Shown here in pieces: positions 54,185-54,419 of a stretch of 64,000 nucleotides of DNA. Under the pieces are notes generated by a model. The model worked only from the letters and a program-made list of their open reading frames with translations, was not told the DNA's origin and made no database searches. The translations under genes and the position numbers were made by a program. Every line of letters begins with the position of its first letter. Positions within the stretch are counted from its first letter, which is position 1. Origin of the DNA: Eledone cirrhosa (taxonomy: Eukaryota); contig OZ024741.1 in NCBI GenBank assembly GCA_964016885.1, positions 265,236,001 to 265,300,000 of the forward strand, written 5' to 3'.

Positions 54185-54419
54185 CCTCATCCTCGGGGCA
54201 CACACAACAACCGCATACATCCCGTACGGCTTTGGTCCGGCAAGTTTTCACTCTTTCACATTCCTTTATACAATCCGGATTGCAATCGTATTCTTCTTCA
54301 TCTCCATCATCGATTTCATTGTCATCGTTCTCTTCACCAAGGGGCGAACATTTCACAGACACCAGTAACAAAAACAAACAGCTCAAGCCGAAAATCCAGA
54401 CAAGCTTTCTTGTAGCCAT
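54185..54419 (-). CDS. First coding exon of a secreted Cys-rich protein: signal peptide, acidic spacer, N-terminal half of an IGFBP-like domain
   Basis: ATG at 54419; MATRK plus hydrophobic core ending VKC-SP; EENDDNEIDDGDEEEY; C-x3-C-x3-C-x5-C-x8-CGCC-x-C; phase-1 donor G|GTAAGA at 54184. Confidence 0.8.

What the first reader, a model, noticed from the sequence alone, without database searches (positions are those of the whole stretch)
54185..54419. Secreted peptide precursor with an acidic pro-region and a half IGFBP domain (8-Cys ladder, atypical CC-x-C)
Seen: a signal peptide, a 16-residue D/E-rich spacer, then CNPDCIKECERVKTCRTKAVRDVCGCCVC followed by a phase-1 intron. Known: RDxCGCCxxC is the signature of IGFBP7/HtrA1/perlustrin-type IB domains, and their first 8 Cys pair among themselves. 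Here the spacing is shortened to CC-V-C, and I found no exon for the remaining 4 IB cysteines in the 54 kb downstream. Inference: a possible lineage-specific small disulfide-rich secreted peptide with toxin/antimicrobial-like precursor architecture.
Basis: partly seen in the sequence, partly recalled or inferred. Interest (0 to 1): 0.75.

Follow-up and report, generated by a model that had tools for sequence, protein, structure and literature searches.

The report
Octopus Kazald gene missing its middle
This is not a small toxin-like peptide but the first exon of an already annotated octopus gene for a secreted insulin-binding-protein relative that has lost the middle of the protein, including the part that holds insulin-like hormones in its vertebrate cousins, so it likely works as a matrix-bound factor through its antibody-like domain instead.

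Summary
The 78-codon exon is real, but it does not encode a small peptide. One spliced contig joins it over a 72.5-kb intron (ending 18 kb outside the window) to three more exons: an I-set Ig domain with the RGGP motif and a basic tail, 201 aa in all. Orthologues are annotated as IGFBP-related protein 1 in three Octopus species and Argonauta. All 14 short forms found (8 clusters) share CC-x-C and the same gap; the 9 put on a tree form one clade (100/99) among molluscan long forms. The lost part is the IGF-binding cleft of vertebrate IGFBPs. Verdict: known gene, apparently undescribed lineage-specific architecture; toxin/antimicrobial reading not supported. Function is inferred only.

The parts
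54185..54419 (-). Coding part of exon 1 (235 nt: 78 codons plus 1 nt, phase 1)
54348..54419 (-). Predicted signal peptide, about residues 1-24 (hydropathy only, no SignalP run)
54285..54335 (-). Acidic arm, residues 29-45, 12 of 17 D/E; no processing site behind it
54198..54284 (-). N-terminal IB subdomain, residues 46-74, 8 Cys, spacing 3-3-5-8-1-0-1
1..54184 (-). Window part of intron 1 (GT at 54184-54183; 72,537 bp in all); no IB C-half or Kazal exon found in it. The rest of the gene lies left of the window, on the minus strand of G000:C2: exon 2 265217495-265217647 (153 nt, first half of Ig), exon 3 265216625-265216798 (174 nt, second half of Ig with RGGP), coding part of exon 4 265216001-265216044 (Lys/Arg tail and stop)

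Best explanation
This is exon 1 of a four-exon octopod gene, the orthologue of molluscan Kazald / IGFBP-related protein 1, that has lost the second IB subdomain and the whole Kazal domain, and whose product likely acts as a secreted, matrix- or cell-surface-tethered factor through its Ig domain and basic tail rather than as a canonical insulin/IGF carrier. Shown: gene structure, splicing, domain content, the gap relative to other molluscs, one clade of short forms. Inferred: secretion; four disulfides among the 8 Cys; loss inside exon 1 (internal deletion, or a new phase-1 donor at the conserved Glu-Gly codons) because vertebrate Kazald exon 1 is long enough to carry IB and Kazal together; loss of the canonical IGF cleft; tethering to heparan sulphate or other polyanions by the Lys/Arg tail; partner binding or self-association by the Ig domain. 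Odds: identity and architecture about 0.95, matrix/Ig mechanism about 0.5.
For: Single 925-nt contig of run X4 joins exons 1-2-3-4 at GT-AG sites, and exon 1 is the only loose end listed at the exon-2 acceptor (the table of loose ends was cut). Four exons give 201 aa without internal stop, 82% identical to O. vulgaris/sinensis P0004, 77% to Argonauta P0006, both named IGFBP-related protein 1. Exons 2+3 are I-set Ig; best single-domain solved match is human IGFBP7 9zhh (E 4.8e-16); the family profile hits 9zhh at 1e-60. Full-length Lottia and chiton proteins hit only exons 2 and 3 of this gene with E < 0.01 in G000. Of 74 stored proteins with CxCC-x-C upstream of the GGP motif, 14 have CC-x-C and no intervening IB/Kazal cysteines, 60 have CC-xx-C and the long insert, none mixed. 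Ig-only tree: 9 short rows one clade 100/99 inside a 98/96 clade with named molluscs. Intron 2 has the same place and phase, and intron 1 the same phase and an acceptor within 2-3 codons, in unnamed genomic contigs of long-form relatives; four-exon structure and exon-1 matches of 123-137 aa in vertebrate Kazalds (PMC12955574 supplement). IGF cleft lies in IGFBP-5 residues 40-92 (PMC3356058), i.e. after the GCGCC subdomain. Tail net charge >= +5 in 11 of 12 short forms vs 4 of 27 long forms; 9-16 D/E in the 20 residues before Cys1 in 12 of 12 short vs 0-7 in 27 of 27 long.
Against: No binding or localisation data of any kind. Splicing for this species rests on contigs of one run whose kind is not on record and which belongs to the same study as the DNA-like runs; contigs drop rare isoforms. 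The human IGFBP7 dodecamer needs a heparin loop in IB and a long Ig loop with Tyr201 (PMC13510594): the first lies in the deleted part, the second is 4 residues shorter here, so that exact assembly is unlikely. The Ig domain has been proposed to matter for insulin binding by IGFBP-rP1 (PMC5618481), so hormone binding is not excluded. The AlphaFold model of the Cys module (pLDDT 78) found no fold match, so the disulfide ladder is by homology only. An AU test does not reject grouping the short forms with vertebrate IGFBP7 (p 0.066). Genome searches score only best candidates and the assembly may be incomplete.
Confidence: 0.75

Rival explanations
1. Same gene, but the product is still an insulin-like-peptide binder, using the Ig domain plus the retained N-terminal 'thumb' subdomain (ImpL2-like mode), and buffers insulin signalling.
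For: IGFBP-rP1 insulin binding has been linked to the Ig domain (PMC5618481 passage); the N-terminal subdomain contacts IGF as a thumb (PMC3356058); Atlas features list an IMP-L2 cluster at 0.90; an 'ImpL2' transcript rises in fasting octopus optic glands (10.1101/340984). That ImpL2 binds through Ig domains is recalled, not from a call.
Against: The main IGF cleft is deleted; only one Ig domain; Atlas ranks IGFBP-rP1/Kazald above IMP-L2; the preprint gives no sequence or accession in the passages seen, so its ImpL2 cannot be tied to this gene.
Confidence: 0.22
2. One reading: small disulfide-rich toxin- or antimicrobial-like peptide released from an acidic pro-region.
For: Signal, acidic spacer and 8-Cys module look like such a precursor.
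Against: Frame continues into Ig and tail; no dibasic/furin site behind the acidic arm in the window protein or conserved in orthologues; one copy found; module conserved like the Ig domain; a 2026 cephalopod venom preprint has 0 occurrences of insulin, IGF, Kazal, immunoglobulin in its main text (weak).
Confidence: 0.02
3. The short form is an exon-skipping isoform of a normal IB-Kazal-Ig gene whose middle exon hides in intron 1.
For: Intron 1 is 72.5 kb and phase 1 at both ends; the same six-frame set-up failed to pick up the real exon 1 with an IB N-half profile, so short or diverged Cys-rich exons can be missed.
Against: No N gaps in the 144 kb; profile of the missing segment gives best domain E 1.0 there while 8 of 8 held-out long forms score E 1e-21 to 3e-6 (controls were bare proteins); 14 of 14 CC-x-C proteins from 8 clusters lack it.
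Confidence: 0.03

Closest known systems
Octopod 'IGFBP-related protein 1' models: O. sinensis XP_029645037.1, O. vulgaris CAI9732974.1, Argonauta hians GAB1604339.1, O. bimaculoides XP_014790369.2
   Same: Direct orthologues; the first three 77-82% identical over the full length, same half-IB + Ig + basic tail
   Different: The automatic name hides the missing IB half and Kazal; the O. bimaculoides model lacks exon 1 altogether
Molluscan Kazald / IGFBP-rP1 (chiton Liolophura P0179, Lottia P0017, oyster XP_011443144.2)
   Same: Signal, 8-Cys IB N-half, RGGP-type Ig (P0004 53% identical to chiton over 100 aa), same clade
   Different: They keep CC-xx-C, 8 further Cys (IB C-half and Kazal, about 70-85 more residues) and lack the long acidic arm
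Vertebrate KAZALD1-4 (PMC12955574)
   Same: Four exons with a 53-aa exon 2 and 45-49-aa exon-3 matches; paper argues non-chordate IGFBP-rP1 genes are Kazald and mostly single-copy
   Different: Defined by IB + Kazal + Ig; no cephalopod found in its text or supplements by term search
Human IGFBP7 (PDB 9zhh; PMC13510594)
   Same: Ig domain aligns at E 4.8e-16; Arg221 and Pro224 of the type-B interface are kept
   Different: Heparin loop region deleted; type-A loop with Tyr201 four residues shorter; Gln219 replaced; separate branch in the tree
Single-IB-domain proteins of crustaceans (PMC7866140); perlustrin and neuroparsins (recalled)
   Same: Reduced members of the IB superfamily
   Different: They keep the whole 12-Cys IB and lose the rest; this protein keeps half of IB and the Ig

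Membership tests
Kazald / invertebrate IGFBP-rP1 (three-domain definition, PMC12955574) | Complete IB domain | tested here: not met
   8 of 12 Cys; no PF00219 hit in P0001, P0004, P0008, P0176, hit in chiton P0179
Kazald / invertebrate IGFBP-rP1 | Kazal domain between IB and Ig | tested here: not met
   absent from transcript, orthologues and intron 1
Kazald / invertebrate IGFBP-rP1 | C-terminal Ig-like domain with RGGP motif | tested here: met
   RGGP as conserved invertebrate motif in PMC7866140
Kazald / invertebrate IGFBP-rP1 | Four-exon structure | tested here: met
   paper's Table S1 rows and Fig. S4 legend; the figure itself was not visible
Kazald / invertebrate IGFBP-rP1 | Orthology by descent (best genome hit, tree) | tested here: met
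   Filed as a derived orthologue, not as a member under the three-domain definition
Chordate IGFBP7 | Groups with vertebrate IGFBP7 | tested here: inconclusive
   best tree separates them 100/100, AU p 0.066 does not reject grouping
Chordate IGFBP7 | Basic heparin-binding loop in IB and long Ig loop with Tyr201 | tested here: not met
Chordate IGFBP7 | Heparin-induced Ig-mediated oligomer | not tested
IB domain (PF00219) | CGCCxxC motif and 12 Cys | tested here: not met
   CGCC-x-C, 8 Cys
IB domain (PF00219) | Homology of the retained part to the IB N-terminal subdomain | tested here: met
   8 Cys align; 12.3 bits vs max 8.4 in 2000 shuffles
IB domain (PF00219) | Four-disulfide ladder fold | tested here: inconclusive
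   model pLDDT 78, no clear Foldseek or VIA match; model coordinates not inspectable
IB domain (PF00219) | Binds insulin/IGF | not testable with these tools
   needs a binding assay
Toxin / antimicrobial prepropeptide | Cys module is the terminal mature peptide | tested here: not met
   followed by Ig and tail
Toxin / antimicrobial prepropeptide | Processing site after the acidic pro-region | tested here: not met
   no dibasic or R-x-x-R site there
Toxin / antimicrobial prepropeptide | Venom-gland or skin-specific expression | not testable with these tools
   tissue of run X4 not on record

The most novel reading that the evidence does not exclude
All coleoid cephalopods replaced their only Kazald/IGFBP-rP1 protein by a rebuilt version (acidic arm, four-disulfide stub, Ig, Lys/Arg/His tail) that cannot bind insulin-like hormones the canonical way and has a new matrix or adhesion role, while unionid mussels independently lost the opposite half of IB: a natural domain dissection of a regeneration-associated bilaterian gene.
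Probability: 0.4. Interest if true: 0.62.

Novelty: new variant of a known kind. Interest (0 to 1): 0.42.

Why it matters
Kazald genes are described as carrying IB, Kazal and Ig, and are tied to limb regeneration and skeletogenesis in vertebrates (PMC12955574). A cephalopod lineage that kept the gene conserved but dropped the namesake Kazal domain and the IGF-binding half of IB shows these parts are dispensable for whatever is selected, and points to the Ig domain and IB N-subdomain as the core. It also warns that the database label 'IGF-binding protein-related' should not be read as hormone binding in octopus insulin-signalling studies. It is not a venom lead.

Tried and rejected
Pfam and PDB sequence searches with exon 1 alone: 0 Pfam families, 3 weak PDB rows, none IB. 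Homologue search with exon 1 alone among longer proteins: 12 candidates, none scored. No RNA holder listed by the look-up of sequencing runs; X4 is read as RNA only from its spliced contig. Contig depth (1343) is not used as a measure of expression. Foldseek of the full-length O. vulgaris model gave generic Ig domains, IGFBP7 not among the rows shown; the Cys-module model gave no clear match. Complex prediction (Ig homodimer) was not available: no verdict. The tree had the bird IGFBP7 row cut at a wrong GGP motif, and the two bird rows were cut by the same rule; only one search is relied on for IGFBP7 placement and AU tests (short clade was 100/98 in both earlier trees). An IB N-half profile run on 2,200-aa six-frame chunks missed the real exon 1; the direct test is. 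One search used exon 3 one base too long; corrected. Other IB-domain exons in the genome (C4:301236197, C6:75623592) keep CC-xx-C and the full IB, and were not hit by the full-length Kazald queries, so they were rejected as the missing full-length orthologue; their neighbouring exons were not read. L016 is a muscle-type multi-Ig exon by its look, not a paralogue. Whether the octopus 'ImpL2' of 10.1101/340984 is this gene could not be decided (journal version not held; preprint supplements closed and may bear on it). Metagenome scan: 20 loci; the 4 with a whole reading frame are long forms, the other 16 show only Ig exons. Earlier-findings look-ups returned nothing.

Full report
Observation. 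The minus strand at 54419-54186 gives the 78 residues described, preceded by an in-frame stop five codons upstream and followed by a phase-1 GT donor. It has a hydrophobic N-terminus, 12 D/E in 17 residues and eight Cys at 46-74. Alone it hits no Pfam family and no second copy was found in the genome (self, then three rows with E > 3). A profile made only from 24 full-length IB N-halves scores the module above all 2000 shuffles, so the IB resemblance is real.

The rest of the gene. Of four runs holding the stretch, none on record as RNA, X4 has a 925-nt contig that leaves the genome exactly at the donor. Its loose end maps once in G000, 18.4 kb left of the window. Laying X4 there shows a 925-nt contig of the same depth joining exon 1 to exon 2, exon 2 to exon 3 over a 696-nt intron, and exon 3 to exon 4. 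The four exons (235, 153, 174, 44 nt; introns 72,537, 696, 580) give 201 aa and a stop. Exons 2 and 3 are two halves of an I-set Ig domain; exon 4 is a Lys/Arg tail. So the product is signal, acidic arm, half IB, Ig, basic tail. This rests, for this species, on contigs of one run.

Relatives. Exon 3 finds three proteins, all named IGFBP-related protein 1: O. vulgaris/O. sinensis, O. bimaculoides, Argonauta hians. The first and third have the same architecture and are 82% and 77% identical to the window gene; the O. bimaculoides model has another N-terminus. Profile searches add six more 90% clusters of short forms without organism on record, 42-52% identical to Octopus, on contigs of 0.9-1.6 kb where a length is given; that they are non-octopod cephalopods is my inference from the tree. 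The named family members that have the IB core are otherwise long: chiton, limpet, oysters, hemichordate, amphioxus, tardigrade, shrimp, birds. Among 218 stored proteins, 74 under 460 aa have CxCC-x-C upstream of a GGP motif: 14 (8 clusters, so near-copies are included) have CC-x-C and go straight to Ig, 60 have CC-xx-C and the long insert, none is mixed. The alignment shows one clean gap from just after the eighth Cys to the start of Ig. All 12 short forms examined have an acidic arm and a net-positive tail; the 27 long forms examined mostly do not.

Is the middle really lost? The 144 kb around the gene has no N. A profile of the missing segment finds nothing there (best domain E 1.0) but finds 8 of 8 held-out long forms; caveat: the same set-up missed the short real exon 1 with an N-half profile. 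Full-length Lottia and chiton proteins hit only exons 2 and 3 of this gene at E < 0.01 (2 of 3 and 2 of 14 matches). PF00219 finds two other exons over its cut-off (2 of 3 matches), both complete IB domains. On the Ig domain alone (35 rows, 112 columns), the 9 short rows form one clade (100/99), with the window row beside Octopus and Argonauta (100/99), inside a 98/96 clade holding all named molluscs and unnamed long forms; grouping with vertebrate IGFBP7 is less likely but not rejected (AU p 0.066). Searches had mis-cut bird rows and are not used for that point.

How it arose. PMC12955574 (passages, Introduction, supplement hits; figures not seen) argues that non-chordate IGFBP-rP1 genes are Kazald genes, mostly single-copy, defined by IB + Kazal + Ig, with a genomic structure also present in protostomes; its axolotl exon-1 matches span 123-137 aa and exon 2 53 aa. 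Unnamed genomic contigs of long-form relatives have phase-1 introns before Ig and at the same mid-Ig position as here (4 loci read for exon 2, 3 for exon 3). The window gene keeps four exons, so the loss most likely happened inside exon 1, by internal deletion or by a new phase-1 donor at the Glu-Gly codons that follow the eighth Cys. This is inference; no relic was found.

How it likely works. In vertebrate IGFBPs the IGF cleft is formed by residues 40-92 (mini-IGFBP-5), and the N-terminal part adds a thumb (PMC3356058, passages); the cleft is the part missing here. Human IGFBP7 works as a heparin-induced, Ig-built dodecamer that glues cells (PMC13510594, abstract, first part of Results, Discussion), but its heparin loop lies in the deleted region and its Tyr201 loop is shorter here; the paper itself says these loops are poorly conserved. 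I therefore favour a secreted factor held on polyanionic matrix by the basic tail and acting through the Ig domain, without claiming the dodecamer (about 0.5). Binding of insulin-like peptides through Ig plus thumb is the main rival (about 0.22; PMC5618481 passages). Models: full-length P0004 mean pLDDT 72.8 with a confident Ig matching generic Ig folds; Cys module pLDDT 78 without clear fold match.

Toxin reading. Rejected: the frame continues into Ig, no processing site follows the acidic arm, one copy was found, and the module is conserved like the Ig domain. A term search of a 2026 cephalopod venom preprint (10.64898/2026.04.09.716377, main text only) gave no insulin, IGF, Kazal or immunoglobulin, which is weak evidence.

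Novelty. The gene is annotated. I found no description of the missing half-IB and Kazal in the library searched: (listings and abstract starts only, except as named), accession search (0 papers), no cephalopod in the Kazald paper by term search, and an oyster paper (PMC8156652, passages) that puts an O. bimaculoides sequence in an IGFBP tree without the word Kazal. PMC7866140 (passages) describes full-length and IB-only shrimp forms. The octopus optic-gland preprint (10.1101/340984, abstract and passages) names an ImpL2 that cannot be tied to this gene; its supplements were closed. Subscription journals were not searched. Verdict: new variant of a known kind, interest 0.42.

Noticed in passing
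P0018, P0159 (Sinanodonta woodiana), P0160 (Potamilus streckersoni): Unionid mussel orthologues show the reciprocal loss: signal peptide joined directly to the IB C-half, Kazal and Ig, with the 8-Cys N-subdomain missing.
   Followed up: partly
L008:1-2151, minus strand (G000:C2:265206001-265208151): Intronless ORF of at least 717 aa about 8 kb downstream of exon 4: RING finger (Pfam E 8e-5), B-box-like Cys/His cluster, then a long run of tandem Pro/Ser/Thr/Gly-rich repeats of about 11 aa; TRIM-like.
   Followed up: partly
L018 (G000:C6:75623592-75623768, plus strand): Complete IB domain at the end of a long open frame that carries a signal-like stretch and about 230 low-complexity residues before it; gene not identified.
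   Followed up: no
L017 (G000:C4:301236197-301236349, minus strand): Single-exon complete IB domain, PF00219 E 3e-11, CCN-like by recall.
   Followed up: no
P0005 (XP_014790369.2) and P0007 (CAI9732973.1): Public gene models with other N-termini: the O. bimaculoides model lacks exon 1; an O. vulgaris isoform lacks the signal peptide. Probably model errors or alternative first exons.
   Followed up: no
intron 1: G000:C2 about 265221500-265225400, and window about 46800-51300: Periodic hits 310 bp apart suggesting a tandem array and a duplicated stretch with about 2.1-kb spacing holding a retroelement-like Cys motif.
   Followed up: no
P0158, P0177 and other unnamed short forms: Tails are His-rich (up to 6 His) rather than Arg-rich as in octopods.
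   Followed up: no
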